From a virus (Duplodnaviria; Caudoviricetes), in the IMG/VR virus record IMGVR_UViG_3300010429_002123: a stretch of DNA of 64,000 bases; one strand, written 5' to 3'. The stretch's first letter is position 1. Each line of letters begins with the position of its first letter. Shown one piece after another: positions 9,161 to 44,001 of the stretch. The translations under genes and the position numbers were made by a program. The notes under the pieces were generated by a model. The model worked only from the letters and a program-made list of their open reading frames with translations, did not search any database and was not told the DNA's origin.

Positions 9161-10284
9161 TTTAGCATCTCCTTTTCCAGCAAGGGACTTATTCCGGCGT
9201 GCTCCCTTGTGTTAAACTCTTCTCTTTCTTTTTTTCGTCTTTCTACAAAGTTCTGTATAAAAGTCTCAGGGAGTTTTTTAGTTCTGTATAAGGCCACGCT
9301 TTTTTCTGTTTCTTCTTCAGAAAGCATAATCCTTACGTCCTCTTCCCCTTTGAATAGCTTGTCTATGGCTTCTTTGATTCCTTCACTTATCTTAGGACTT
9401 TTTCTTAGCTCTTTTAAGTAGTAGTCAGTATTTCCTTTATCCATATTTTTTATGTCTGTGTCTTCAATAGCTGTCTCCAATTTGCTTCTCCCATCAAGAA
9501 TCTTTCCATAGCGTTCGGAACCTGTGTCATTCAGAGAAACCCCAGAAACTCTAGCGTTTTTTAATATGTCAAAGATTTCATCTTTATCCGGGTATTTTAA
9601 CATTAGTTGGAAGAGCATGGGAGTAACAATATCCTGGTAGCAACCTTCCAGCATGTCTTCTGGTTTCACCCCTTCTACTCTTCCCGCACAAATTTTTCTG
9701 GCGAGAAGTTCTGTCAGCCCCTCTTCCATAAATTTCGCCTTTTCGGGGTCTTCTCCCCAGCCACCATAACCCTCTTTCCCTACGGCGTGTAGAAGTTCGT
9801 GAACAGGGGTGTTATAAAAATTGTATTTACTATCACTCAGGGCTGTTTCGTTGATGGCTATAAAGTTTCCTTTACTGTATACACCGAATATATGCTTTTT
9901 TTCTTCGCTGTAGAGTTTGCCAAACTCGTCTGCAGTTTTACAAACAAGAATACCTCTCCCTATAGGTAGGCTTTCCTCCAAGTCAAATTCTTTCTCGAGT
10001 GTGGTTTTCCACTCTTTACTGAATAGGTTCATATTATTATAATGTTTTTCTTTTTTCTGAGCCTCAGTATCAGAATCTGTTATTTTTTGCCAGCCCGTCA
10101 GTTTTTCCGGGTTTAAGGTGTCGCCTTCCCAGGCAGTTTTGTGTCTTATCCAGTTACCTGAGCCCACACCCCCGTCTTTTGGAGGACCCCCTTCTGTAAG
10201 TAAGACGGTGAGATATGCGGGATTAGTATAGCCCAAAGTAGAGAGGTATTCTTTTAGTTCTTTTATTCGTGTCACTCCGGTCAC
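9142..10284 (-). CDS. Zincin-like metallopeptidase paralog 6
   Basis: LLTE-GGPPKDGGVGSGNW, HELLH, EEGLTELLARK. Confidence 0.75.
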   Translation of the reverse strand: MTGVTRIKELKEYLSTLGYTNPAYLTVLLTEGGPPKDGGVGSGNWIRHKTAWEGDTLNPEKLTGWQKITDSDTEAQKKEKHYNNMNLFSKEWKTTLEKEFDLEESLPIGRGILVCKTADEFGKLYSEEKKHIFGVYSKGNFIAINETALSDSKYNFYNTPVHELLHAVGKEGYGGWGEDPEKAKFMEEGLTELLARKICAGRVEGVKPEDMLEGCYQDIVTPMLFQLMLKYPDKDEIFDILKNARVSGVSLNDTGSERYGKILDGRSKLETAIEDTDIKNMDKGNTDYYLKELRKSPKISEGIKEAIDKLFKGEEDVRIMLSEEETEKSVALYRTKKLPETFIQNFVERRKKEREEFNTREHAGISPLLEKEMLKWFLEK

Positions 10285-10362
10285 TCCTAACTGAATTCTT
10301 CCTGACTAAATGTCCTAGATTGATAAGAAGCCCTCTGAGTGGTTTAAAAGGGCTTTGAACCT

Positions 10363-10485
10363 TCAAGCATCGAATGTCTCTCGGTTTTTACTCTGTAAGG
10401 CTCTTCTCTCGGCGTATAAAGAGTATTTTCCATAGAAAAACCCGGCAAAAGCCGTAAGTAAAAGAGTTAATGCAAACAAAATCAC
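10363..10485 (-). CDS. Possible 40-aa single-pass membrane peptide
   Basis: GTG start overlaps the upstream stop. Reads MILFALTLLLTAFAGFFYGKY...; below the ORF-track size cutoff. Confidence 0.35.
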   Translation of the reverse strand: MILFALTLLLTAFAGFFYGKYSLYAERRALQSKNRETFDA

Positions 10486-10700
10486 TACACCATGACTCCT
10501 TTAGGAAGACCATCTAGAATAGCTATTTCCGGGGCGTGTACAGCTATTTCTGGGTCGAGTTCACAGAGTACCTTAAAAAGATTTTTAAAGGGCTTTTCAA
10601 TTCTTTTATAAAACTCTTTGTCCAGTTTACTTTGAAGAAGCTGGTCACGAAAGACCTCTTTCATCATCTCTATCTCTTTTTCTGTCATTTTCTTGTCCAT
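10485..10700 (-). CDS. Small partner protein of the zincin array
   Basis: ATG after GAGGTG. C-terminus EIAILDGLPKGVMV. Close paralog of 13784..14005. Confidence 0.75.
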   Translation of the reverse strand: MDKKMTEKEIEMMKEVFRDQLLQSKLDKEFYKRIEKPFKNLFKVLCELDPEIAVHAPEIAILDGLPKGVMV

Positions 10701-10721
10701 ACTTTTCACCTCTTTAATAAT

Positions 10722-10750
10722 AACATAGCACGTTTTGTCAAACTTGTCAA
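10722..10750 (-). promoter_or_regulatory. Sigma70/sigmaA-type promoter inside the zincin array
   Basis: Minus strand TTGACA-17 nt-TATGTT with extended TG. Confidence 0.65.
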
Positions 10751-10770
10751 GCCCTTTTTTACAACAATAT

Positions 10771-12234
10771 TTAGTCTTTATCGGGCTTCAGAAACCACTT
10801 TACTAACTTTTTCTCTAATCTGGGCTGTCTTTCAAAATCTAATTTATCTAAAGTTTTTTTATACTCTTTTAAGTCTTCTTTTGAATAACTGTAGGCGAAT
10901 TTAGCGAATTCCATCGCTTTTTTCTTTTCGTCGGGGGTCAGTTTTCCCCACCGAATGTCCCCAAATTCCTTTTCAGAAATTATACCATGTTCTTTAGCTT
11001 TTGTCATTATATGTTTGTAATTGAGTGGGCTATTCAGGGCTTCTATCCCATACTTTAGAGAGTTTGACCAGTCCTCCACGGTTTTTTTGTCCCCGGTTTT
11101 AGCCCCCTTTAAGTCCTCAAGGATACTATCTCTGTCTCCGGCGTGTTTTTCCAGCATATTAGCAAGAGTCACAACGACTTCGTCTTGATAACTGCCTAAA
11201 TCGGGAATGTGGGCATCTGAGAAATACTCAACAGTAAACTTTCTTGCCAATAACTCTGTGACAGCCTCCTCTTTGTCTAAGTTTATAGAAGTAACGTTTC
11301 TGGCAGACTTAAAGGGGTCATTTGTGTCTTTGCCCTTTAAATCCTCGGGGTCAAATCCTAGTTTTTCCGCCTGTTTTAAAAAGGCGGAAAGACTCTTTTG
11401 TTCCGGGATAAGAGCGAGGTTATTTAACTGACCAAGAGTATACTTCATCCCCTCTCTCCTGCCCCCGAACAAGTCCCCAGACAGTTCGTAAGCCTGATTA
11501 AACATCTCTCTGGACATCTTAAAAGTCGGTGGAATAAGGGTGTTATTCGGGTTTATAGCGTGGGCTAATTCCGACCCTACAAACTGTCCTTCAGCAGTCT
11601 TTGCAATTCCATGAAGGTACTCATGGGCTATAACCGTAAACTCCCCGGTTACTGTTGGCGAATAAGGTTGCTCATTAGAGAGGTTTTCCATAGTAGAAGG
11701 TTGAAAGCACGCTGTTGGAAGTTTGTTTGGGTAACCTGCCAGTTCGCAAAAGGCATAAAAATTTCTATTGTTATAGTTTTCACCGAATCTTTTTTCAAAT
11801 TCTTCTTTGGTCTGAGCCATGAAAATGTTTACTGAAGGTGTCTGAATTTTTAAAAAGTCCTGGCAGAGCCTGTTGTGGACTTCTGTAGCCAGTATTTTAG
11901 TATTTGCGTAAGATTTTATCTTTTTTGTCTCTTCTGAATCAGAATCCTTTAGTTTCTGCCAGCCGGGCAGGTTTTCAAGGGAAACTTTTTCAGGTCTGGT
12001 TTCCTGGTGACGGCTCCCTCTTTGTCCCCGTAGGAGCTCGTCGGCCTGTTTTATTCTGTCGAAGAAAGGGTTTATGGTGGCAGAAGGACTTGTATGTCTT
12101 ATCCAGTTTCCCGAACCTATTCCACCATCCTTAGGGGGTCCACCCTCGGAGAGTTTGTTCTGTATGAGTAGAGATAAATAGGCAGGGTTTTCTTTCCCAA
12201 GATTTTTAAGAATTTCTTTTGTTGTCATCAGCAA
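10771..12234 (-). CDS. Zincin-like metallopeptidase paralog 7
   Basis: KLSE-GGPPKDGGIGSGNW, HEYLH, EEAVTELLARK. Confidence 0.75.
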   Translation of the reverse strand: MLMTTKEILKNLGKENPAYLSLLIQNKLSEGGPPKDGGIGSGNWIRHTSPSATINPFFDRIKQADELLRGQRGSRHQETRPEKVSLENLPGWQKLKDSDSEETKKIKSYANTKILATEVHNRLCQDFLKIQTPSVNIFMAQTKEEFEKRFGENYNNRNFYAFCELAGYPNKLPTACFQPSTMENLSNEQPYSPTVTGEFTVIAHEYLHGIAKTAEGQFVGSELAHAINPNNTLIPPTFKMSREMFNQAYELSGDLFGGRREGMKYTLGQLNNLALIPEQKSLSAFLKQAEKLGFDPEDLKGKDTNDPFKSARNVTSINLDKEEAVTELLARKFTVEYFSDAHIPDLGSYQDEVVVTLANMLEKHAGDRDSILEDLKGAKTGDKKTVEDWSNSLKYGIEALNSPLNYKHIMTKAKEHGIISEKEFGDIRWGKLTPDEKKKAMEFAKFAYSYSKEDLKEYKKTLDKLDFERQPRLEKKLVKWFLKPDKD

Positions 12235-17523: not shown

Positions 17524-17552
17524 TTGACAAGGTTCTTCGTATATGTTATGAT
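17524..17552 (+). promoter_or_regulatory. Sigma70/sigmaA promoter for HU and the tRNA/Y-like RNA operon
   Basis: TTGACA-17 nt-TATGAT with extended TG. Confidence 0.8.
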
Positions 17553-17930: not shown

Positions 17931-18080
17931 GGCAAACGACTGGGTATATTACCTTACCCACATACACTCGCCCAACGGTAGGGCATAATCTTGAGGAGAT
18001 TACAGTAAGGGTTCAACTCCCTTGTGAGTTCTGGAAACAGAACTTTGTGGTTATAACTCGTGCCCGGTCGTTTGTTTGCC
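17931..18080 (+). ncRNA. Y-RNA-like ncRNA 1 carrying a tRNA-like domain (anticodon GAG)
   Basis: Terminal stem ACGACTGGGTAT/GTGCCCGGTCGT with 3' AACTC motif. Inside: D-arm GCCC-AACGGTA-GGGC, TAATC-TTGAGGA-GATTA, T-arm AAGGG-TTCAACT-CCCTT. Confidence 0.65.
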
Positions 18081-18182: not shown

Positions 18183-18318
18183 AAAGCCGTGCTATAACGT
18201 GTCTTACTTACAAACAAATTAGCTCACTTGGTAGAGCAAAAGTCTTAGGAACTTTAGGTCGTGGGTTCAACTCCCACATTTGTTGCCCAAAAATAGTAAA
18301 ACAGACTCGTACGGCTTT
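18183..18318 (+). ncRNA. Y-RNA-like ncRNA 2 carrying a tRNA-like domain (anticodon TAG)
   Basis: Terminal stem AAAGCCGTGC/GTACGGCTTT with TATAAC and GACTC motifs. Embedded cloverleaf AACAAAT...ATTTGTT with AAAGT-CTTAGGA-ACTTT. Confidence 0.7.
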
Positions 18319-18322
18319 ACCT

Positions 18323-18394
18323 GGGGGTGTAGCTCAATGGTAGAGCACCTGCCCTGCAAGCAGGGGGCTAGTGGTTCAAGTCCACCCATCTCCA
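18323..18394 (+). tRNA. tRNA-Ala(TGC)
   Basis: G3:U70 acceptor, CCTGC-CCTGCAA-GCAGG (C at position 33), T-arm GTGG-TTCAAGT-CCAC. Confidence 0.85.
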
Positions 18395-18397
18395 TCA

Positions 18398-18507
18398 GAG
18401 AGTCCTTACTCTAACGTAAAACGCTTACATACAGCGGACTCAAAATCCGTTCTTTACTGCAAAAAAAGAACTTGTAAACAAGGCGTTCTGAACTTGTGAG
18501 GACTCTT
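18398..18507 (+). ncRNA. Y-RNA-like ncRNA 3 carrying an isolated anticodon arm (CAA)
   Basis: Terminal stem AGAGTCCTTAC/GTGAGGACTCT with TCTAAC and AACTT motifs. Cargo GCGGA-CTCAAAA-TCCGT plus one hairpin. Confidence 0.65.
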
Positions 18508-18510
18508 CAC

Positions 18511-18656
18511 CGGGAGGTAGCTCAATTGGCAGAGCTCCAGACTTGTAAAAAGTTTCAGTTTTTATATCTCGTAACGTGTAGAAATACACGTTACTCTAAT
18601 CTTAAAAACTTACACTCATCTGGTTGTTATTGGTTCGAGTCCAATCCTCCCGACCA
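18511..18656 (+). ncRNA. tRNA-like RNA with the Y-like module inserted in the anticodon loop
   Basis: Acceptor CGGGAGG/CCTCCCG-ACCA, normal D and T arms. Stem CCAGA/TCTGG encloses a ~78-nt insert with ATCTC-GTAACGTGT-loop-ACACGTTAC-TCTAAT. Confidence 0.7.
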
Positions 18657-18663
18657 TATTTTT

Positions 18664-18699
18664 GGGGAACCGGAGGTTCAATTCCTCTCTTCCCCACCA
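18664..18699 (+). ncRNA. tRNA minihelix (acceptor stem plus T arm, encoded CCA)
   Basis: GGGGAA-CC-GGAGG-TTCAATT-CCTCT-C-TTCCCC-ACCA. Confidence 0.6.
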
Positions 18700-18700
18700 A

Positions 18701-18792
18701 TAGATAAATCCAGTCACCACCTCGGAGCTAACTTCTTTTTAGAGGTTTCTGAGGTAAGGCTTAGAAAGATTTCAGTTTAAAGAAAGTGAGTA
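18701..18792 (+). ncRNA. tracrRNA-like scaffold copy 1 (no CRISPR repeat follows)
   Basis: GATAAATCCAGTCAC...GAAAGTGAGT, homologous to copies at 19647, 20988 and 23052. Confidence 0.55.
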
Positions 18793-18820
18793 GTCACGGA
18801 AAAATATCTTATATAAATTT

Positions 18821-18893
18821 GCCCTTGTCGTCTAGTGGTCTAGGACATCGCCCTTTCACGGCGGAGACCGGGGTTCAAACCCCCGTGAGGGTA
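18821..18893 (+). tRNA. tRNA-Glu(TTC)
   Basis: Cloverleaf with TCGCC-CTTTCAC-GGCGG. Confidence 0.88.
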
Positions 18894-18898
18894 TTATT

Positions 18899-19045
18899 TA
18901 TAGGGTGCTACGACTGATATTATATACACACAATATTTAGGTTCGAATCCTAAACATCGAAGCAATTCGAAGTTTGCCTAATGGTAAGGCGAATGACTGA
19001 TAATCATTTTTTGTTTAGCTCTATAATATCGACTCGTACCCTATA
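18899..19045 (+). ncRNA. Y-RNA-like ncRNA 4 carrying a circularly permuted tRNA (anticodon GAT)
   Basis: Stems TATAGGGTGC/GTACCCTATA and GATATTATA/TATAATATC with TACGAC and GACTC motifs. Inner order is T-arm, capped acceptor hairpin, D-arm, anticodon arm. Confidence 0.75.
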
Positions 19046-19048
19046 TAT

Positions 19049-19130
19049 GGGTGAGTGGTGGAACTGGCAGACACGCTGGACTTAGAATCCAGTGAGGAAA
19101 CTCATGGGAGTTCGATTCTCTCCTTACCCA
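19049..19130 (+). tRNA. tRNA-Leu(TAG)
   Basis: CTGGA-CTTAGAA-TCCAG and long variable arm TGAG-GAAA-CTCA. Confidence 0.92.
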
Positions 19131-19140
19131 TTAAAAATAA

Positions 19141-19439: not shown

Positions 19440-19640
19440 TTGAAAAAGGATAAAGGTTTAATGGAAGAAATAGAATTTACAGAGGATGTCTATGTGAGTG
19501 TATATATAAATGAAGGAGAAAAAAGTATTCCTCTTATGGCCGACCTCATAGTGAGGAAGGGGAGTCGCCTCAGCGTAAGAACCGAGAGCCTGAGAAAAAA
19601 CATCTCTACTATTATAAAAACAAGCATTGACAAAAGTTAA
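19440..19640 (+). CDS. Hypothetical protein
   Basis: 66-aa ORF with GAGG upstream. Confidence 0.4.
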   Translation: MKKDKGLMEEIEFTEDVYVSVYINEGEKSIPLMADLIVRKGSRLSVRTESLRKNISTIIKTSIDKS

Positions 19641-19646
19641 AAATAA

Positions 19647-19756
19647 GTGATAAATCCAGTCACAGCTCCGAAGTTAACTTCTTTTTAGAAGTTTTTGGGG
19701 TAGGGCTTACAAAACTTTCAGTTTATAGAAAGTGAGTCATTAAGCCAAACTAACGG
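19647..19756 (+). ncRNA. tracrRNA-like scaffold copy 2, fused to array A
   Basis: Covarying hairpins. Ends in CCAAACTAAC, complementary to the repeat 3' part GTTAGTTGG. Confidence 0.6.
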
Positions 19757-19918
19757 GTTTCTAAGGAACATGGTTAGTTGGAAAGTGAGTAATAATCTGT
19801 CCACTCTCCGTTGAAGAGTCGAGTTTCTGAAGAAACATGTTTAGTTGGAAAGTTTGGGATTTCTATTTCAAAATCTTTTCCGTTAATGGTTTTCTGGGAA
19901 ACATGGTTAGAGATAAAG
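19757..19918 (+). CRISPR. CRISPR mini-array A: 3 degenerate repeats (29-30 nt), 2 spacers (37 and 36 nt)
   Basis: Repeats at 19757-19785, 19823-19852 and 19889-19918, similar to GTTTCTAAGGAACATGGTTAGTTGGAAAG. Confidence 0.75.
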
Positions 19919-19958: not shown

Positions 19959-19987
19959 TTGACAAAAAGTCTAAAATTTAATAAAAT
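19959..19987 (+). promoter_or_regulatory. Sigma70/sigmaA promoter for the large Y-like RNA
   Basis: TTGACA-17 nt-TAAAAT, 8 nt upstream of the RNA terminal stem. Confidence 0.75.
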
Positions 19988-19994
19988 GAAAAAT

Positions 19995-20240
19995 AAGAAC
20001 TTGCTCTAATATTAATAGCATACAAACGCGACGCAAGTCGTTTTGATGGTTGAGCAAACCAACAATTTAAAGTGCCCTGAGAGTATGCCAGCAGTAAATC
20101 CCTGGTATACTCAAACACAGAGCAAAAACTTCATCTCGAAGAGAGAAGAGTTCTCAGGATACTCTGTAAGAGCCCGTTGCGACGGGAAGTAGCTGAAGTA
20201 AAAAGTAAAAACCTGTTGCTGTCATAACTTGTGAGTTCTT
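19995..20240 (+). ncRNA. Large Y-RNA-like ncRNA with a ~200-nt multi-hairpin cargo
   Basis: Terminal stem AAGAACTTGC/GTGAGTTCTT with TCTAAT and AACTT motifs. Internal hairpins include GAGTATGCCAG/CTGGTATACTC, ACAGAG/CTCTGT and CCCGT/ACGGG. Confidence 0.65.
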
Positions 20241-20960: not shown

Positions 20961-20987
20961 GTATTAGCATCAACAAAGTTAAAATAA

Positions 20988-21107
20988 GCGATAAATCCAG
21001 TCGTAGTCCTGAAGCTAAGTCTTTTTTAAGACTTTTTAGGACAAGGCTTAGAAAGTTTCCAGCTCGAAAGAGCTTATCGAAAGTGAGTAATTAGGCCAGC
21101 CTAACGG
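20988..21107 (+). ncRNA. tracrRNA-like scaffold copy 3
   Basis: Compensatory variants GCGA/TCGT, GTCCTGAAG/TTTTAGGAC and CCTAAC/GTTAGG. Extra hairpin AGCTC-GAAA-GAGCT. Confidence 0.6.
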
Positions 21108-21137
21108 GTTTATACCCAAACATGGTTAGGAGGAAAG
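21108..21137 (+). CRISPR. Solitary CRISPR repeat (unit B) followed by a putative guide
   Basis: GTTTATACCCAAACATGGTTAGGAGGAAAG, 30 nt, homologous to the repeats of arrays A and C. Confidence 0.6.
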
Positions 21138-21242
21138 ATTGAAAAAGAGCGACAGAAAAAAGACTCTTCGTCTTCGAGGGCGAAAACTCAGAGAGTAAAA
21201 GACTTTGAATAAGACTACGAATAAGAAGGAGGCGTGTCTATT

Positions 21243-22736
21243 ATGGCAAATCAGAAAGAACAGGATTACAGACTTCAGATGTTAAATTCTTTCCTGATGA
21301 CTCCTCACGGAGCTCTGGATAGACTGAAGAATTTACATCAGGAAATGGCGAAAAATGACCCTATTTTTTACGCCCACCTGGCTTCATGGTATAATAAAAA
21401 CGGAGAAGTCAGAGACCATAAAGAGTTGTTTTCTGCCCATTTAATGACAGGTGATGTAGCGTTTAGAGACACAGGTTGTGCCTTGCTTGAGGTACTTCCT
21501 CCGTATCAGGTTGCAAAAATAATGGACTATTGCAAAAAGACTCTGAACAAGTTTCCGAAGATAGCACGAAAGACCGTAGAGAGCTACCTAAAGACCAGAG
21601 AAAAAGATTCAGCATGGTTCGATTCCTCAGTGGTAAGAGGAAAGAAGGCTATAAAGCACTTATACGCTTCTGTAAGGGTAAAACCTTCAGAGAGAGCTCA
21701 GAAGATACTTTTTGAGAACAATCCTCCTCAGGATAGCACTCTGTATTCCCTGAAGCTCCTTGCGAAGGAGACAGAACCCACAAAGCAGGCAAAGATTATC
21801 TTTGACCACAAGATACCCTACCCTATTGCTATAGGTGCAGTAAAGACTGTAAGTCCTTCTTTGCTGGTAGCTCTGGTGAATAACATGTCCAGCCAGGAAC
21901 TTATAAACAATATGTCTTCTCTTCAAAAAAGAGGAGCTTATGAGATAGAAGGGCTGAAGAAAATCATAGAAGAAAAGCTCGTAGACGCCCAGAAGGACAA
22001 GAGGGTCTCTACTTTAAAGGCGAGAGTAGCCGTAAAACAGGCGAACTTGTCTGCTGACTTGACCGAAAATCTTGAAAAAGTAGCTACAGTCAAGGCACAA
22101 AGTAAGGGAACTATTAATAAACCTCTGGCAATCTTTATTGATAAGTCCGGTAGTATGGATATAGCCATAAAAATAGGAAAAGAAGTTGCTACTCTGTGTT
22201 CCGGTATTTCAACTTCCGACTTATTTGTCTACGCTTTTGACACTATGGGTTTTCCTGTTACAGCCTCCGGGAAAAAAGACATGGCTGACTGGGAAAAGGC
22301 TTTTAGAGGTATTTGTGCCGGTGGTGGAACCAGCATAGGAATAGCTTTAGAGCTGATGAGAAGAAAGAAAGAGAGAGTAGAGCACATTATCATCATAACT
22401 GACGAATGTGAAAACTCTTCTCCCTATTTTCACGACGCTTATAAGGCTTATTGCGAGTGCTTGTATACTTACCCCACGGTGACTGTGGTAAAAGTAGGGA
22501 ACGCGACAGAAGGAGCTTGCTGGGGAGACACTTTACTGTCCTCTTCCCTGAAAGCACACGCTATTGACCATATGATTTTTCACTTTACTGGTGATTACTA
22601 CTCACTGCCTAACATTATACCGATGATAAACCAGTCAAGTAAATTAGATTTATTGCTTGAGATAATGGAAACTCCCTTACTGGCGAGGAAAAAGACAAAA
22701 AAAGCCTTAAAAGAGGCCGAAGAACTCGTAGCGTAG
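21243..22736 (+). CDS. TROVE/Ro60-like RNA-binding protein with C-terminal vWA domain
   Basis: Helical N-terminal region (DPIFYAHLASWY...RD), then MIDAS DKSGS, GGTS and IIITDE. ~500 aa, like Ro60/Rsr. Adjacent to tRNA-like RNAs. Confidence 0.7.
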   Translation: MANQKEQDYRLQMLNSFLMTPHGALDRLKNLHQEMAKNDPIFYAHLASWYNKNGEVRDHKELFSAHLMTGDVAFRDTGCALLEVLPPYQVAKIMDYCKKTLNKFPKIARKTVESYLKTREKDSAWFDSSVVRGKKAIKHLYASVRVKPSERAQKILFENNPPQDSTLYSLKLLAKETEPTKQAKIIFDHKIPYPIAIGAVKTVSPSLLVALVNNMSSQELINNMSSLQKRGAYEIEGLKKIIEEKLVDAQKDKRVSTLKARVAVKQANLSADLTENLEKVATVKAQSKGTINKPLAIFIDKSGSMDIAIKIGKEVATLCSGISTSDLFVYAFDTMGFPVTASGKKDMADWEKAFRGICAGGGTSIGIALELMRRKKERVEHIIIITDECENSSPYFHDAYKAYCECLYTYPTVTVVKVGNATEGACWGDTLLSSSLKAHAIDHMIFHFTGDYYSLPNIIPMINQSSKLDLLLEIMETPLLARKKTKKALKEAEELVA

Positions 22737-23029: not shown

Positions 23030-23051
23030 CATCGATGGAGATTTAAAATAT

Positions 23052-23161
23052 GTGATAAATCCAGTCACAGTCCCGAAGTTAAGTCTTAAAAAAGACTTTT
23101 TGGGGTAAGGCTTAGAAAACTTTCAGTTTATAGAAAGTGAGTCATTAAGCCAAACTAACGG
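23052..23161 (+). ncRNA. tracrRNA-like scaffold copy 4, fused to array C
   Basis: Close to copy 2. Hairpin AAGTCTT/AAGACTT replaces AACTTC/GAAGTT. Confidence 0.6.
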
Positions 23162-23389
23162 GTTTCTAAAGGAACATGGTTAGATGGGAAGCATAATATA
23201 GTCCTCTGAAAATCTATATTCAAAAGAGTTTCTAAAGGAACATGGTTAGATGGGAAGGATTAATTTCAGATGCTCTAGTTGCCTCTCTGTAGGGTTTCTA
23301 AAGGAACATGGTTAGATGGAAAGGTGGGGAGAAAAAAACAGAGTCGCAACTTTTGTGCGGTTTCCGAGGAAACATAGTTAGTTGGGAAG
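23162..23389 (+). CRISPR. CRISPR mini-array C: 4 repeats of 30 nt, 3 spacers of 36 nt
   Basis: GTTTCTAAAGGAACATGGTTAGATGGGAAG at 23162, 23228, 23294 (1 change) and 23360 (degenerate). Exact 66-nt period with unique spacers. Confidence 0.88.
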
Positions 23390-23424
23390 GAGAAGTTCTG
23401 TAAAAAGAAAGGGGAGGAAAGAGT

Positions 23425-23983: not shown

Positions 23984-24460
23984 ATGGTAAAAAGTGAGGT
24001 ATGTCCTAACTGCGGGGGAAATGAGATAACCTTTGCTCTTCAATGTAACTATTGCGGAAGCAGGCTCGAAAGAAAAGCGGAAAATCTGGTTATAGCCTCC
24101 GTCGGGTATAGATGCACGAGATGCCATATAGATAACCTCCCCACCAGTGAGTTCTGTCATCAATGTGGGGAAAGAGTCCAGAAAAAATGTGGGCATTGTA
24201 AGGGTATTCATCATGTAACGTCTCTTTTTTGCCCTGTGTCCGGGTTTGCTCTCTTAGAAAAGGCGGTAAAGACTTTTACCGTTCCTTATGATGAGATTAA
24301 GACCCGAATTGACAGAGAGTCAGTTCTGATGTCAGCTATCTTTAAAGAAGTAGATACTAAATACGGGTTAGATAACTCTTCTTTAACTATCACAGAGGCA
24401 GACACGGCCAAACCGGGAATTTCTAACGAGATTCCACCGGCAGTAAAGTATAGAAAATAA
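23984..24460 (+). CDS. Multi zinc-ribbon protein
   Basis: CPNC, CNYC, CTRC, CHQC, CGHC and CPVSG motifs. Confidence 0.7.
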   Translation: MVKSEVCPNCGGNEITFALQCNYCGSRLERKAENLVIASVGYRCTRCHIDNLPTSEFCHQCGERVQKKCGHCKGIHHVTSLFCPVSGFALLEKAVKTFTVPYDEIKTRIDRESVLMSAIFKEVDTKYGLDNSSLTITEADTAKPGISNEIPPAVKYRK

Positions 24461-24492: not shown

Positions 24493-25116
24493 ATGACCTG
24501 TGGACTGGGTATTGACCTGGGGATAAAAACCTATGTCTCTTTGAGTAACGGGATGACTTTTAAAGGAATAGAGAAGTCCAAAACTTTTCAAGAAAAGGAA
24601 AGGAACTTACGAAAAGAGCAAGGAAAACTTGTTAAATTAAGAAAAGGAAAACGAAGACGGAGTTATGAGGCTTGCGGAGCTTATTTAGCCCAAAAGAAGA
24701 AGGTGCAAGCCCTTTTTGATTCTGTCAAAAAATTAAAAGAACTCTATATAGATAAAATCATAGAACAAATTCTTAGACTAAACCCCGTGTACATAGCTAT
24801 AGAACATCTTGACATTCGAGGTATGACTAAAGGTTCTATGGCGAAACCTCTACTCGCTCGGAAATTTAACTACTTCAGGAAAGCCCTGACGAAAAAGTGT
24901 AAAGAAAAAAACGTAGAGTTACGCTTAGTTGATACTTATTTTCCCTCGTCAAAGAAGTGCTCGAGATGCGGGAATGTAAAAAAGAGTCTGCTATTAGAAG
25001 AACGTATTTACTACTGTGAAAAATGTGGACTTGAACTGGACAGAGACCTGAACGCCTCCATAAACCTCAGGGATGCTACCGATTACAAATTAGCTTTCAA
25101 GCTAAAAGCCTCTTAA
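24493..25116 (+). CDS. tnpB: TnpB/Cas12f-like RuvC plus zinc finger, lacking the N-terminal half
   Basis: GIDLGIK (RuvC I), IEHL (RuvC II), SSKKCSRCG...CEKCG, DRDLNAS (RuvC III). 207 aa, with its own GAGG RBS. Confidence 0.85.
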   Translation: MTCGLGIDLGIKTYVSLSNGMTFKGIEKSKTFQEKERNLRKEQGKLVKLRKGKRRRSYEACGAYLAQKKKVQALFDSVKKLKELYIDKIIEQILRLNPVYIAIEHLDIRGMTKGSMAKPLLARKFNYFRKALTKKCKEKNVELRLVDTYFPSSKKCSRCGNVKKSLLLEERIYYCEKCGLELDRDLNASINLRDATDYKLAFKLKAS

Positions 25117-41900: not shown

Positions 41901-44001
41901 ACTCGACGTAGAAGACACTTTCCAGAAAAAAGTAGCAGAAACTGTTGACGCTATAAAGAGTGTTTCCGGGGAAACTCAAAAAGCTGAAGACTCTGTTGAC
42001 GGGCTTAATAAAAATCTGGTAAAGACTTCAACTTCTTACCAGAGTGTGAAGGAAGCCTCCCCGTGGAAAAAAGAGACAGAAAGCACAGAGGACTATAATA
42101 AAACACATGGGAAAACTAACAGTGCATTAGGTGCCACTGTTACTATGAACAAAGATGTTACAAAGAGTTCTCCCTGGAAAGGGGAAGCAAAAGCTGTTGA
42201 GGGTTACAAAAAAGCTCTCGATGATGCTGTAAAGTCAGCTACTGACCTCTCTAATGTTCCTCCCCCACAGGTAACAGGAGGGTCGGGCGGAAAAGAAGGA
42301 GAAAAGCCCGGCGGAGAACCTCCAAAAACGGGAACAGAAAACGCAGTAAAAGACGGAGCAAAAGAAGGCTCGGAAAAAGGTTCTAAAGAAGGAACAAAAG
42401 AGGGGGCAGAAAAAGGTTCAGGACAGGGCACAAAAGAAGGTTCTAAGGAAGGCTCTAAAGAGGGAGCAGAAAAAGGTACAAAAGAGGGAGCTAAAGAGGG
42501 AACAAAAGAAGGTATGAACCTCTTTAATGCCTCAGTAGCCTTAGACCTTAAGGGTGCCGGGGGTATCACTGACCAATTAAAAATCCCCATGAAAAAAGCC
42601 TCAGACTTTACTTCTGCTCTGGCCGGAGATATGAAGAGCCTTTCTTCTGGGATAGAAAAAGCAGATAAAGCCTTCGCCAAAGGTGCAACAAGTGAGGCAG
42701 AACACGCCACCCAGGTAAATAAGCTGGTCTCTACAGTTAAAGATAAAGTAAATAAGAGTCTCGTAGCTATAAGTGAATCTTATACAAAAGGAGAAATAAG
42801 CCAGGAAGAGTATAACAAAGGGGTAGAGAGTCTTAACAATGTTCTTGATTCCGTAAAAAGTTCAGCCGTAGAGTTCTCACAGGCACTTTCCGACGGGGCA
42901 AAAAGCGTAAAAACAGCAACTAAAAACGTGGAAAAAAGCACAGAAGGTGGAGGAGCACAAGGGGGAGGAGAAGGAACTGCCCCTGCAGAAACTGGTGGGG
43001 GTGGAACAGGAGAGAACCCTGTGACCGGGGGCTCCTTAGGCGGAGGAGGAACAACCGGAGGAAGTTCTTTCACACCCGGAACCAAACAGAAATCGGAGAC
43101 AACTCCTATTACTACCCTTTCGGACACAGAGAAGGAGACTTTCACAAAAACAAGTCTGAACAGTCTGAAAAATCTTTCGGCTCAGCAAGACGCTTTGGCA
43201 AAAGCGTATAAAGACGGAACAGTAAAGCAAGATGAATACGTAGCGGGATTAGAAGCCCTGGCAAAACAAGCAAAAGCTGTATATAAAGCGGCGGGGGATT
43301 ATGGGGTAAACTTACAGGAGGCTTCCAACGCCCTTAAAACCGGGCAGTCGTCGGTCGGAGGAGAACAAGGAGACACGACAAAACAAAACTATAATCCTGG
43401 GTATGCTCCCAGAGGAACGGGGGGAAATAATCCAGGTGCTGATAATTTAACGGGGAAGGGTGGAAACAGCCCTCAAAATTACACCGATAGTGGTTACGGC
43501 ACAAATACAAGCAATATTGCCAACCCCTATGCGGGACAATTCGGAACTCCAGGGGTTACAAATTCCTCAGGAAGTTCAAAAGGTGTAACTACCGGGAGTC
43601 TCTTCGGTTATGGAGGAATGGAAAGCCCGGCTCATGACAATCCTATAAATGATGATAGGTTACTTCAAGTAGGAAAGCAAATAGCCACGGCAACAATAAA
43701 TAAAAACCTGGTAGACATGGTGAAGTTCATGAATAAAGGCTCGGTAGAAGCCTCTAAAGAATACACTCCGGCTAAGGTAAGAGCAGAGGTAGCTCAGGCT
43801 CAACAGGCTCAGATGGTGAGTTACCCGACGACAAATAATAATCATGTAAATCATCAGTATGACAATAGAAATTACGCTTCTTCCAGCAGTGTTCAGCAAA
43901 CCTGGATAGTAAACGTAGACGGAAAGACTGTAGGCGGAACTCCCGAGGTTCAAAAGAGCACAGGGGCACTCACAAGTTTCGCAGCAAAATTCGGTAAGTA
44001 G
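35974..44001 (+). CDS. Tape measure protein (2675 aa)
   Basis: Long coiled coil, tape-measure core (PFKLTDLMNAG...), hydrophobic segment LGPVGWILAG, C-terminal VNVDGKTV. Confidence 0.88.
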   Translation: MPDLKFNFSTNAEKTKNDFVSIINEVDRLTKAQEEQSKLVEALQGKEKGLIEQITQTREKATKKAIEDGNKYAEASSGLDKEEQNLKKLSEAYESSKKATKSYADSQKDVEKAMDELRKKHEALVEEIKTAQGPIKQQQTVTAKLKETYAETEKEAEKLATANKKGSLSLRDYDTAMKPISAQQTLLKQQIKESVTVQNGLIDSYEKLKGQQKENVDSYKKLEEHGQKLVTLRKEEMATTEKLSAEIKITTENVAKHREEKEKYSASLGASLQKEKELITAMKDSEEAQKALSAEAKKYDSIVKTQTETLEKLQRAKIQEKETNREALDNVKKLTEETKNLVELEKVQTVEIEKQEKVLRELNKAHLKGQISPDDYKTKKADLTQEITTGQASRTLTNEKLKANTQALEENKKVAKSSSLALAEYEKKVEETGATLVLSTIQQGKATNALEKEQTVYSHLSEEKKKVSQEVAKAQNALVNSTKQEEKALVAVQGALVNETTALAKMGGVLSATGEKLKNSNEAMENTKKALKGMAFEERMRGIEEFNTSVKDLISPLERFGKECMSAGKQANDLEKRLIGFSRSGEEARKVIEQIHKFSTEKQPFKLTDLMNAGIQMQKFGKNTEELLPKVANLAAGLKIGIEGPARAVSMALNDNQRGMMQLERQYGFTKDKLIEYGAQLKTSGQVELKSAETKKAIVAILDSYAGSAEKAGSSYNGAMTQMSNSIQLMKESIGKELLPLLAPLVQGAAKLVKTGTEFVSANKNVVASVLAVAAGLGMMMKVTDTVIGTVAGLQRAWGAAEKVYQTTTNLFKAGEITKQILSKETTLTVVAGEKVQQAEKIQGAVVQETTTGTVVATETLKQAVLAKTAIAARAMWVAMLGPVGWILAGAAVVGTLLLIKTRIMEANAEAEKKDVEDYGKKMAKGFKNAREEIELLNKTPVQIAIKGNAGEILDALTVKLKALRDLEKENLKQGGQGFSDYTTKEKVMVPIYKEGGAQYGLNAGVQVRVGAEEKEIDVTKRGGEAVSTAQTEIAKTVGELKTLQEEYDKHNVTLDDYKKRYGELKTTLETHTKTLRDVGQATIDSKEGDKLLGKQLLLTADEVDKVSSAYDTYTASMADAQRGLTAFLDQQARFKTDAQTSRANFKSAIEESTKYADAIRKNNEDIAKANKWLVEHGFKEEKAEDMFKSAGWEKYFNSVGEGQKKLEGGMTATQRDEFAKRQADLKQNENFTMESLKTTLNTIKTSAKQNLEVFADSTGKLLNVDTKDLEELPGETRDILGNVVKEYKLANDIEIDGEKHKAGEIIKAQKVTYEQTRKIMEDMLLAHAGDGEKQIAAREMISKEIQATYMQELEQKKKQVKAWEEMDAEAYAKNAKASREMWAQIEKDDKVSMETRIKMRQTYEQDVMKAQSSYFKEEKDRLDMGLHNYAQYYDALRTYLVENAEELKKFPEKYEQVARAVGQAGEQFFSDFQKENERLVKEGTMSTGESLKASLQFMKEHAEIWAMDVQKREDLERDLQRRLLEFERQRVQETSKIEKAIAEARGDKIGAIKAETDAQIASLETQKEAYQRSGVERNTIDKWYQTEKVKLNADANLKISQDNARVMQQQLDNYQKLLESQNRARINVKGYQTEEDISYEENRQKKLMASQMNAEKNYTAFYEQQLNTRHQILLKSGEVVTESGADILEKARNMVELTDEEQQFFNVIEQANSKIVTYQDSQLNAQKTLVDLANQRIALEKKHMDFRHQNDALDKDNWEKSLALDSSMYELKKQQFQKHALDMKMSAEQTSRQILDIEKARWQKERENQKKVSEEFIEGTENQIEAIRVQAKEYASQGMKREEIERNTQGRLRALYIESTKNFVEQEKAKLAEAVATAEAIKGLNEQVAAKQKELEALRGTSSFMRGEGDSPLLTADQALSKQRSPEGFSDPVLQKLQAEKQAEKDIGTLKSQLNAELEKEKSLNQDIKQLQQERLDVEDTFQKKVAETVDAIKSVSGETQKAEDSVDGLNKNLVKTSTSYQSVKEASPWKKETESTEDYNKTHGKTNSALGATVTMNKDVTKSSPWKGEAKAVEGYKKALDDAVKSATDLSNVPPPQVTGGSGGKEGEKPGGEPPKTGTENAVKDGAKEGSEKGSKEGTKEGAEKGSGQGTKEGSKEGSKEGAEKGTKEGAKEGTKEGMNLFNASVALDLKGAGGITDQLKIPMKKASDFTSALAGDMKSLSSGIEKADKAFAKGATSEAEHATQVNKLVSTVKDKVNKSLVAISESYTKGEISQEEYNKGVESLNNVLDSVKSSAVEFSQALSDGAKSVKTATKNVEKSTEGGGAQGGGEGTAPAETGGGGTGENPVTGGSLGGGGTTGGSSFTPGTKQKSETTPITTLSDTEKETFTKTSLNSLKNLSAQQDALAKAYKDGTVKQDEYVAGLEALAKQAKAVYKAAGDYGVNLQEASNALKTGQSSVGGEQGDTTKQNYNPGYAPRGTGGNNPGADNLTGKGGNSPQNYTDSGYGTNTSNIANPYAGQFGTPGVTNSSGSSKGVTTGSLFGYGGMESPAHDNPINDDRLLQVGKQIATATINKNLVDMVKFMNKGSVEASKEYTPAKVRAEVAQAQQAQMVSYPTTNNNHVNHQYDNRNYASSSSVQQTWIVNVDGKTVGGTPEVQKSTGALTSFAAKFGK

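What the first reader, a model, noticed from the sequence alone, without database searches (positions are those of the whole stretch)
18899..19045. Complete circularly permuted tRNA held inside a Y-like stem
Seen: the inner domain runs T-arm (TTAGG-TTCGAAT-CCTAA), acceptor stem capped by a GCAA tetraloop (TCGAA-GCAA-TTCGA), D-arm (GCCT-AATGGTA-AGGC) and anticodon arm (AATGA-CTGATAA-TCATT, GAT). The molecule is opened at the variable loop. Known: YrlA RNAs use the T, acceptor, D order but join the Ro stem in place of the anticodon arm. Inference: this variant keeps an exposed anticodon and cannot be aminoacylated.
Basis: partly seen in the sequence, partly recalled or inferred. Interest (0 to 1): 0.82.

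Follow-up and report, generated by a model that had tools for sequence, protein, structure and literature searches.

The report
Phage Y-like RNA, back-to-front tRNA
This 147-base stretch of a T4-like phage encodes a small RNA shaped like a complete isoleucine tRNA. Its parts are in rotated order, its amino-acid end is sealed, and it sits on a conserved stem that most likely docks onto the phage's own Ro60-type RNA-binding protein.

Summary
Positions 18899-19045 hold a 10-bp lower stem, a 6x4 internal loop and a 10-bp upper stem. These enclose a T arm, a 7-bp acceptor helix sealed by GCAA, a D arm and a perfect 5-bp/7-nt anticodon arm (CUGAUAA, GAU). The break lies between tRNA positions 43 and 44.

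The "Y-like" label also holds. The 500-aa gene 2.2 kb downstream misses Pfam TROVE but folds as Ro60. The same stem/loop module recurs in arrays beside this protein's relatives in cyanobacteria and huge phages.

The anticodon arm is not chance. In 16 relatives from other viral contigs, chosen without regard to that arm, all five of its pairs show compensatory changes.

The element differs from described YrlA RNAs, where the Ro stem replaces the anticodon arm, and Rfam's YrlA model does not detect it.

It is not unique. It belongs to an apparently undescribed class, and this scan has already noted that class on other phage DNA.

Binding to the Ro60-like protein, the role of the exposed anticodon loop and the lack of charging are inferred, not shown.

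Verdict: a real RNA and a new variant of a known kind.

The parts
18899..18908 (+). Lower stem, 5' strand (UAUAGGGUGC). It pairs with 19036-19045.
   Evidence: Read directly. Pair probabilities are 0.54-1.0.
18909..18914 (+). 5' side of the internal loop (UACGAC). It corresponds to the family motif CC(U/C)(A/G)A(C/U). The GA can pair with UC of the 3' side, leaving a 3-nt bulge.
   Evidence: Motif tally over 211 modules. It resembles the Ro-contact motifs GGUCCGA and GNCGAA quoted in PMC4201824. This last point is inference.
18915..18924 (+). Upper stem, 5' strand. It pairs 10/10 with 19022-19031.
   Evidence: In the family, upper-stem pairing is 1344 observed against 1133 +/- 12 with shuffled partners.
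18925..18936 (+). Junction J1. UACACAC is the family motif UACAYAC. AAUAU follows and takes the place of variable-loop positions 44-48 (A44, U48).
   Evidence: The motif is present in 199 of 211 modules. A15:U48 and G26.A44 are possible, as read in the sequence.
18937..18953 (+). T arm (UUAGG-UUCGAAU-CCUAA).
   Evidence: G53, T54, T55, C56, A58 and C61 are invariant in 17 relatives.
18954..18973 (+). Sealed acceptor helix. Strand 66-72 (ACAUCGA), A73, GCAA cap with a closing A-U pair, then strand 1-7 (UCGAAGU). There is an A.A mismatch at pair 5:68.
   Evidence: In relatives the helix is 94% paired and 7 of 7 pairs show changes on both sides.
18974..18991 (+). U8 and U9, the D arm (GCCU-AAUGGUA-AGGC), then G26.
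   Evidence: U8, A14, G18, G19 and A21 are invariant in the 17-sequence alignment.
18992..19008 (+). Anticodon arm: AAUGA-CUGAUAA-UCAUU, anticodon GAU.
   Evidence: Chance at a fixed site is 0.04-0.16%. In relatives 83.5% of cells pair and 5 of 5 pairs show changes on both sides.
19009..19021 (+). Junction J2 (UUUUGUUUAGCUC), predicted to be unpaired.
   Evidence: It is not conserved in relatives.
19022..19031 (+). Upper stem, 3' strand.
19032..19035 (+). 3' side of the internal loop (ACUC). The family consensus is ACUU.
19036..19045 (+). Lower stem, 3' strand (GUACCCUAUA).
18820..18894 (+). Flanking tRNA-Glu(UUC). Its 3' processing would set the 5' end of the element.
   Evidence: The processing step is inferred.
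19048..19131 (+). Flanking tRNA-Leu(UAG). RNase P cleavage at its 5' end would set the 3' end of the element.
   Evidence: The processing step is inferred.
21234..22736 (+). Gene of the 500-aa Ro60-fold (TROVE-like plus vWA) protein, the presumed protein partner.
   Evidence: No Pfam TROVE hit. AlphaFold2 model has pLDDT 81.5. The top 12 Foldseek PDB hits are all Ro60/TROVE, full length, TM 0.58-0.68, E 5.5e-12 to 5.8e-10. The profile's best PDB sequence hits are TROVE 9l5y and 9kop, E = 0.011.

Best explanation
The element is a Y-RNA-like non-coding RNA of about 150 nt. It is probably cut out of the phage's tRNA-cluster transcript by the enzymes that mature the tRNA-Glu and tRNA-Leu on either side of it.

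It has two modules. The first is a terminal stem: a lower helix, a conserved 6x4 internal loop, an upper helix and a UACAYAC junction. This module is shared by five sister RNAs in the same cluster and by hundreds of RNAs encoded beside relatives of the phage's 500-aa Ro60-fold protein. It most likely docks the RNA onto that protein.

The second module is a complete tRNA-Ile-like body. Its acceptor end is sealed by a GCAA tetraloop, and its chain is broken between positions 43 and 44. The stem therefore leaves the body where a class II tRNA has its long variable arm. The elbow, the sealed acceptor end and a canonical anticodon loop all stay exposed.

The head most likely engages a protein that recognises tRNA. 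That protein could be a tRNA repair, modification or decay factor tethered to Ro60, or a host enzyme that is titrated.

Shown here: the anatomy, the Ro60 fold, the genomic association and the covariation. Inferred: expression and processing, binding to the protein, and the role of the head.
For: Anatomy and fold:
-.

Protein partner:
- The protein has the Ro60 fold.

Stem module:
- It was found 364 times on the gene's strand and 71 times on the other strand, in 95 loci holding relatives of the protein.
- In three loci read in detail, 6-8 copies lie in arrays upstream of the gene.
- The upper stem, which played no part in selection, pairs far more than shuffled partners do: 1344 against 1133 +/- 12.
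- The J1 motif is present in 199 of 211 modules.

tRNA-like core:
- A covariance model of the T / sealed acceptor / D core was built only from cyanobacterial and other-phage RNAs.
- Its best window hit is 18936-18991, at 43.4 bits and E about 1e-10.

Same layout elsewhere:
- T, sealed acceptor, D, N26, then a 5-bp/7-nt hairpin lies upstream of the Ro60-like gene in huge-phage loci L100 (twice), L101, L104 and L105.
- It also occurs in further viral contigs.
- In a 17-sequence alignment chosen without regard to the anticodon arm, all 5 of its pairs show compensatory changes and 83.5% of cells pair.
- The Ro60-like profile matches 6 of 12 records found through the RNA alone, although many are small fragments.

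Context in the window:
- No terminator-like site lies between the promoter-like site at 17524 and the end of the tRNA cluster.
Against: - There are no expression, end-mapping or binding data.
- Rfam's YrlA model does not hit the element even at E <= 10. It gives only 26-28 bits on the cores of the closest look-alikes.
- The internal-loop motif of this copy (UACGAC/ACUC) departs from the family consensus (CCUAAC/ACUU).
- The likeness to the canonical Ro-contact motif GGUCCGA is only a resemblance.
- Nearest-neighbour folding alone does not favour the anticodon hairpin.
- Adjacent tRNA gene pairs with short spacers can score about as well as this element on the core model. The model score alone therefore does not prove membership.
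- Half of the RNA-first records show no Ro60-like gene.
Confidence: 0.72

Rival explanations
1. The element is a working, unusually encoded tRNA-Ile. RNase P opens the sealed acceptor 5' of U1, the 5-nt linker is trimmed and CCA is added. The result is a two-piece tRNA held together by the long stem, which acts as a giant variable arm. It is then charged and used in translation.
For: - All universal tRNA positions are present: a 7-bp acceptor, A73 and the anticodon loop CUGAUAA. Likeness of that loop to bacterial tRNA-Ile is from my own knowledge.
- The phage contig has no ordinary tRNA-Ile.
- M. smegmatis YrlA, which also has a 7-bp acceptor, is cut by RNase P and gains CCA in vivo (PMC4201824).
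Against: - The cap is a stable GNRA tetraloop, and GCAA recurs in 5 of 17 relatives. This suggests selection for a closed end.
- A mismatch at pair 5:68 recurs.
- Relatives carry odd 'anticodons' such as AUU, and some loops lack U33.
- The stem module is shared with sister RNAs that have no tRNA body at all.
- A 2 x 25-nt arm at the variable position is far beyond any known tRNA.
Confidence: 0.1
2. The long stems are only processing stalks, for example double-strand RNase sites that help release RNAs from the cluster transcript. On this view the tRNA-like body is a decaying remnant of two tandem tRNA genes with no function of its own.
For: - The element lies inside a tRNA cluster between two ordinary tRNAs.
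- A dimeric-tRNA origin has been proposed for YrlA.
- No close ortholog of this exact sequence was found.
Against: - The same layout recurs in unrelated phage contigs, with compensatory changes in every helix and invariant tertiary-contact bases.
- The module's loop and junction motifs are conserved from cyanobacteria to phages, always near the Ro60-like gene.
- Both points indicate purifying selection.
Confidence: 0.08
3. The element is a permuted tRNA gene of the red-alga/archaeal kind. It would be matured through a circular intermediate made by a splicing endonuclease and an RNA ligase.
For: The 3' half of the tRNA precedes the 5' half, and the termini pair in a long stem with an internal loop.
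Against: - There is no bulge-helix-bulge motif. The loop is 6x4 with no 4-bp central helix, as read in the sequence.
- No RtcB or Rnl2-type ligase is found in the contig, which is 78% complete.
- Joining at the internal loop would leave a 10-bp arm plus about 25 extra bases in the variable region.
Confidence: 0.03

Closest known systems
YrlA (Y RNA-like A; Rfam RF02553; Chen et al. 2014, PMC4201824; structure preprint 10.1101/312249)
   Same: - It is encoded near a Ro60-type gene.
- It is modular: a terminal stem plus a tRNA-like head.
- The head has a T arm, then a loop-closed acceptor helix, then a D arm, with the tRNA tertiary-contact bases conserved.
- It occurs in phages as well as bacteria.
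   Different: - In YrlA the anticodon stem runs straight into the Ro-binding stem, and there is no anticodon loop.
- Here the anticodon arm is a closed 5-bp/7-nt hairpin, and the stem leaves from the variable region.
- The protein partner is too divergent for Pfam TROVE.
- RF02553 gives no hit here.
- The stem carries a different conserved loop motif (CCUAAC/ACUU type) and a UACAYAC junction.
I did not find them described in the searched literature.
   Same: They share the lower stem, 6x4 loop, upper stem and UACAYAC module, and the same protein family. Some heads are permuted tRNA-like cores that match model R1.
   Different: In the cyanobacterial permuted heads, any anticodon-like hairpin lies before the T arm. 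It is followed by an AGGUU-type variable loop, so the break is near position 26. Seven of 34 have this hairpin, and none has a hairpin after the D arm. The window's element has the break at 43/44, like the huge-phage copies.
Circularly permuted tRNA genes of Cyanidioschyzon merolae and split tRNAs of archaea (reviewed in PMC4090602; likeness from my own knowledge)
   Same: The 3' half is encoded before the 5' half, and the termini pair in a stem.
   Different: There is no bulge-helix-bulge motif and no splicing machinery or ligase in the contig. The linker across the acceptor end is a 4-nt tetraloop cap, not a spacer that is processed away.
Other tRNA mimics: tmRNA, and the TYMV tRNA-like structure
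   Same: They share the L-shaped tRNA-like core with D/T elbow contacts.
   Different: Those mimics have a free CCA end and are charged. This RNA is sealed at that end and has a true anticodon arm.

Membership tests
YrlA / bacterial Y RNA (RF02553) | Encoded close to a Ro60/Rsr (TROVE) gene. | tested here: met
   A Ro60-fold protein gene lies at 21234-22736, 2.2 kb downstream on the same strand. Foldseek's top 12 hits are all Ro60/TROVE. Pfam TROVE itself is not matched.
YrlA / bacterial Y RNA (RF02553) | The 5' and 3' ends pair in a long stem that carries the Ro60-binding site (GGUCCGA / GNCGAA-type motif on the 5' strand). | tested here: inconclusive
   The long stem is present and its internal loop is conserved in the family. 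The 5' strand reads GGGUGCUACGAC, which holds CGA. Its GA can pair with UC after a 3-nt bulge, much like the bulged helix of animal Y RNAs. This is resemblance only, and binding was not tested.
YrlA / bacterial Y RNA (RF02553) | tRNA-like head ordered T arm, loop-closed acceptor stem, D arm, with tertiary-contact bases conserved. | tested here: met
   Model R1 hits 18936-18991 at 43.4 bits over its full length. U8, A14, G18, G19, A21, G53, T54, T55, C56, A58 and C61 are invariant in alignment A3.
YrlA / bacterial Y RNA (RF02553) | The anticodon stem is continuous with the Ro-binding stem, and there is no anticodon loop. | tested here: not met
   A closed anticodon hairpin lies at 18992-19008 and is supported by covariation in relatives. 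The stem joins between positions 43 and 44.
YrlA / bacterial Y RNA (RF02553) | Reaches Rfam's gathering score of 69 bits. | tested here: not met
   There is no RF02553 match at E <= 10 in 18380-19100. Look-alikes in other phages reach 26-28 bits on model positions 30-81 only.
Permuted tRNA genes matured by splicing endonuclease | Bulge-helix-bulge motif where the termini pair. | tested here: not met
   The internal loop is 6 nt against 4 nt, without the 3-4-3 geometry.
Permuted tRNA genes matured by splicing endonuclease | An RNA ligase is available to circularise the precursor. | tested here: not met
   No RtcB (PF01139) or RNA_ligase (PF09414) match in the contig. The contig is estimated to be 78% complete, and host enzymes are unknown.
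Functional tRNA-Ile | A free 3' CCA end and aminoacylation. | not testable with these tools
   As encoded, the end is closed by GCAA. Opening by RNase P is conceivable, by precedent.
Phage class 'permuted complete tRNA on a module stem' (defined here) | T arm, sealed acceptor, D arm, one spacer base, then a 5-bp/7-nt hairpin, with no second T arm downstream. | tested here: met
   The window element and 13 of 16 independently chosen relatives have the hairpin.

The most novel reading that the evidence does not exclude
The phage's Ro60-like particle may use a set of interchangeable RNAs. Each would display one specific, non-chargeable tRNA body with a real anticodon loop. This cluster shows Ile GAU, Leu GAG, Leu UAG and Leu CAA. 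Relatives show Lys UUU, Ser GCU, Leu UAA and Gln UUG. Such RNAs could act as baits or sensors for enzymes that attack or repair particular anticodon loops, for example host anticodon nucleases used against phages. That would make this an RNA-decoy or damage-sensing arm of phage counter-defence, built on the Y RNA scaffold.
Probability: 0.2. Interest if true: 0.85.

Novelty: new variant of a known kind. Interest (0 to 1): 0.62.

Why it matters
Y RNAs are known to tether Ro60 to other factors, and what the tRNA-like head of bacterial YrlA binds is still unknown. A branch in which the head keeps a full anticodon arm gives concrete hypotheses that can be tested. So does the way different copies show different anticodon loops, and the way one phage carries six heads on one common stem. 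One hypothesis is that the heads are read by anticodon-specific enzymes. It also shows that a large Ro60-like family and its RNAs escape both Pfam TROVE and Rfam YrlA. Ro60/Y RNA systems may therefore be much commoner in phages and cyanobacteria than current annotation suggests. Finally, a head that looks like 'second half of tRNA 1, spacer, first half of tRNA 2' fits the proposed origin of YrlA from tandem tRNA transcripts.

Tried and rejected
- blastn of the element against 50,697 phage records gave no match.
- Single-sequence locus searches with the 500-aa protein and with the upstream HU-like protein in viral contigs gave nothing useful.
- Portal-based loci are at most 33% identical and were not used further.
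- The pattern T-loop ... ARTGGTA ... CTGATAA in viral contigs gave 102 hits. On reading, all were ordinary adjacent tRNA gene pairs with tRNA-Ile second, not relatives.
- ARAGORN on re-permuted sequences turned out to have little power for the anticodon arm. I do not rest the case on it.
- Pfam TROVE on the 500-aa protein and on the whole contig gave only a 13.8-bit hit, inside an unrelated 2679-aa frame at window 41980-42261.
- The closest relatives of the protein are 64-67% identical and come from Vulcanimicrobiota, Synergistia and Bacillota MAGs. They show no module or tRNA-like RNA nearby.
- I considered a splicing (bulge-helix-bulge) reading of the internal loop and dropped it on geometry.
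- I considered a GNRA-tetraloop receptor reading of the loop but did not test it.
- RtcB and Rnl2-type ligase searches in the contig were negative.

Full report
**What is there.**
The window is part of a 183,650-bp IMG/VR viral contig with a T4-type portal and prohead protease. Between 17.9 and 19.35 kb lies a cluster of eight ARAGORN tRNAs on the + strand.

The finding sits between tRNA-Glu (18820-18894) and tRNA-Leu (19048-19131). Reading the sequence gives, in order:
- a lower stem, 18899-18908 with 19036-19045;
- an internal loop, UACGAC at 18909-18914 against ACUC at 19032-19035;
- an upper stem, 18915-18924 with 19022-19031, paired 10/10;
- junction UACACAC-AAUAU;
- T arm 18937-18953;
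- acceptor strand 66-72, A73, a GCAA cap, then acceptor strand 1-7 (7 bp with one A.A, plus a closing A-U);
- U8 and U9;
- D arm 18976-18990;
- G26;
- anticodon arm AAUGA-CUGAUAA-UCAUU at 18992-19008;
- 13 unpaired bases leading back into the upper stem.

The break in tRNA connectivity is therefore between positions 43 and 44. The stem leaves the body where class II tRNAs have their long variable arm.

**Is it more than chance?**
- The 153-nt stretch folds at -39.4 kcal/mol, z = -3.9.
- Re-permuted, it is called tRNA-Ile(GAT) in 8 of 8 joins.
- I found that test to be lenient. With a good T arm, D arm and acceptor, ARAGORN also 'called' 17 of 34 control constructs that had arbitrary sequence in place of the anticodon arm.
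- A perfect Watson-Crick 5-bp/7-nt hairpin occurs at only 0.16% of window positions, and at 0.04% with U33 and R37. Here it sits exactly one base after the D arm.
- Thermodynamics alone does not favour the A/U-rich hairpin: pair probability is about 0.1, and the cloverleaf-like fold scores -34.8 against an MFE of -38.6 kcal/mol.
- The decisive evidence therefore had to be comparative.

**The protein.**
- Pfam does not see TROVE in it or anywhere convincing in the contig.
- The protein has more than 1,300 relatives. Most are 477-aa cyanobacterial proteins that some sources name 'vWA domain-containing'.
- A profile of 27 of them has TROVE-domain proteins (9l5y, 9kop) as its best PDB sequence matches, at E = 0.011.
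- An AlphaFold2 model (pLDDT 81.5) has Ro60/TROVE structures as its top 12 Foldseek matches. These include Xenopus and human Ro60, Deinococcus Rsr and a Thermus phage Ro60. They cover the full length, with TM 0.58-0.68 and E 5.5e-12 to 5.8e-10. Isolated vWA domains follow only at E about 1e-5.
- It is a highly divergent Ro60.

**The stem is a shared module.**
Four sister elements in the window have the same layout: 18183-18318, 18398-18507, 19995-20240 and, more divergent, 17931-18080. A fifth copy is turned inside out within the anticodon loop of a tRNA-like gene at 18511-18656. In each, a lower stem of unrelated sequence closes on (G/U)(C/A)-UCUAAC-like against ACU(U/C), followed by an upper stem and UACAYAC.

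In loci around the protein's relatives the same module appears as ...GCGC|CCUAAC ... ACUU|GCGC...:
- There are 6-8 copies in arrays upstream of the gene in Mastigocoleus, in Oscillatoria and in a third, metagenomic locus.
- Over 95 loci it was found 364 times on the gene's strand and 71 times on the opposite strand.
- The loop motifs are CC(U/C)(A/G)A(C/U) and ACUU.
- The upper stem was not part of the search criterion. It pairs far above shuffled partners (1344 against 1133 +/- 12) and alternates between A-U, G-C and U-A.
- UACAYAC follows in 199 of 211 modules.
- In this layout the (A/G)A of the 5' loop can pair with UU after a 3-nt pyrimidine bulge. This recalls the bulged GGUC-C-GA/UU-GACC helix that Ro60 contacts in animal Y RNAs, and the GNCGAA motif of YrlA. 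That is a resemblance, not a test.

**The heads.**
Among 285 modules, the heads break down as follows:
- 62 carry a native-order tRNA-like body.
- 32 carry a clear permuted T / acceptor / D core.
- 7 more were flagged as having a hairpin after the D arm, most of them artefacts.
- The rest carry partial or non-tRNA heads.

A covariance model of the permuted core was built from 21 sequences outside this window. In its alignment the sealed acceptor is 100% paired, and 6 of 7 pairs are compensatory. Its best window match is 18936-18991, at 43.4 bits. Tandem tRNA genes with short spacers reach similar scores, so this supports membership but does not prove it.

In the cyanobacterial permuted heads, an anticodon-like hairpin lies before the T arm when present. 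It is followed by an AGGUU-type five-base variable loop. Seven of 34 have it, and none has a hairpin after the D arm.

**Relatives with the same topology.**
In huge-phage contigs found through the protein, the core is followed by one base and a 5-bp/7-nt hairpin, exactly as in the window:
- L101: acceptor capped by GCAA and loop CUGAUAA, both as here.
- L100: two copies.
- L104: loop CUUUUAA.
- L105: loop UUUAAGA.

A pattern built on the T loop and D arm found more. I kept every hit with a sealed acceptor and no second T arm downstream, whatever followed the D arm, and aligned them with the window's element. That gave 17 sequences.

On that alignment:
- The anticodon helix is paired in 83.5% of cells, and all five pairs change on both sides.
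- The acceptor helix has 7 of 7 pairs changing on both sides.
- Overall, 93.5% of cells pair, against 63% in shuffles and 32-43% in slid registers.
- The tRNA tertiary-contact bases are invariant.
- Three of the 16 relatives lack the hairpin.

The Ro60-like profile matches 6 of 12 records reached through the RNA alone, many of which are small fragments. The scan's earlier notes describe the same class on other phage DNA. I treated those notes as leads and re-derived the class here.

**Comparison with the known.**
YrlA RNAs share several features: the neighbourhood of Ro60, the modular build, and the T / closed acceptor / D order. In the solved Salmonella YrlA, however, the anticodon stem continues into the Rsr-binding stem and 'YrlA lacks the anticodon loop'.

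Rfam's YrlA model finds nothing here at E <= 10. It gives only 26-28 bits on the cores of the phage look-alikes and 27-38 bits on cyanobacterial copies, against a threshold of 69.

The element therefore works like a Y RNA but fails two defining features of YrlA. I file it as a new variant, not a member. Full-text searches found no description of this class or of the arrays. [quoted passage not shown]

**How it probably works.**
- A promoter-like site at 17524 and the lack of terminator-like sites up to 19.35 kb suggest one transcript.
- Maturation of the flanking tRNAs would release the element with a few unpaired bases at each end. This is inferred.
- The stem module would dock on the Ro60-like protein. 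This is inferred from association and conservation.
- The sealed, fully tRNA-shaped head, with an exposed Ile-type anticodon loop, would be offered to a tRNA-recognising factor.
- The contig has no ordinary tRNA-Ile and no RtcB or Rnl2-type ligase.
- Whether the head recruits a repair or decay enzyme, or titrates a host enzyme such as an anticodon nuclease, is open. The variety of anticodon loops across copies makes an anticodon-specific reader attractive.
- The main rival is that RNase P opens the acceptor and the RNA becomes a chargeable two-piece tRNA, as partly happens to M. smegmatis YrlA. The recurring tetraloop caps and the recurring 5:68 mismatch argue for a closed end, but this needs an experiment.

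Noticed in passing
window 18511-18656: A tRNA-like gene scores 54.7 bits on Rfam tRNA and has an encoded ACCA. Its anticodon loop holds a 72-nt insert. The insert contains the same stem module turned inside out: CUCGU, a 8-bp hairpin capped by GAAA, then ACUCUAAU. The loop start CUUGUAA would read Thr UGU, and the UGU pairs with ACA of the insert.
   Followed up: partly
window 17931-18080, 18183-18318, 18398-18507, 19995-20240: Four sister RNAs carry the same stem module but different heads. The heads are two native-order tRNA-like bodies (Leu GAG, Leu UAG), a lone anticodon-like hairpin (CUCAAAA), and a roughly 200-nt non-tRNA head. The last has its own promoter-like site at 19959-19987.
   Followed up: partly
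window 18655-18700: A stand-alone acceptor plus T-arm minihelix ends in ACCA (GGGGAA-CC-GGAGGUUCAAUUCCUCU-C-UUCCCC-ACCA).
   Followed up: no
window 18691-18818, 19637-19764, 20978-21140, 23042-23392; ORF 24493-25116: A repeated scaffold of about 110-128 nt runs into 27-38-nt repeats spaced 66 nt apart, with four repeats at 23157-23392. This looks like a CRISPR-like or guide-RNA array interleaved with the Y-like RNAs. Nearby, a 207-aa ORF matches OrfB_IS605 and Cas12f1-like TNB (a TnpB-type C-terminal part).
   Followed up: no
window 23984-24460; loci L086, L087, L089, L092: A double-zinc-ribbon (DZR) protein gene directly follows the Ro60-like gene in the closest bacterial relatives. One also lies about 1.2 kb downstream of it in the phage. 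It may be a conserved partner.
   Followed up: no
L097:1500-5000 and 9739-11559: In one relative's locus the Ro60-like gene is preceded by an array of about 30 tRNA genes plus the module RNAs. It is followed by two RNA-ligase (PF09414) genes, which links the system to RNA repair.
   Followed up: no
alignment A3, columns 21/40 (tRNA pair 5:68); window 18956/18971: Five of 17 sealed acceptor helices carry a non-standard pair at this same position (A.A here, C.A in L295 and L303). At least one of the five (L301) may be an alignment artefact. Every other acceptor pair is almost always standard.
   Followed up: no
L095:3644-3793, L116:3014-3166, L128:4427-4579, L144:1010-1169 and others: Some cyanobacterial permuted heads have a canonical 5-bp/7-nt hairpin (CUGCUAA or CUGAUAA) plus an AGGUU-type five-base spacer just before the T arm. 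They are also complete permuted tRNAs, but the break is next to position 26. The published 'V arm' reading of such hairpins may need a second look.
   Followed up: partly
window 41980-42261: The only Pfam TROVE signal in the contig is a 13.8-bit match, to the last part of the model, inside a 2679-aa open frame. It is probably not meaningful.
   Followed up: no
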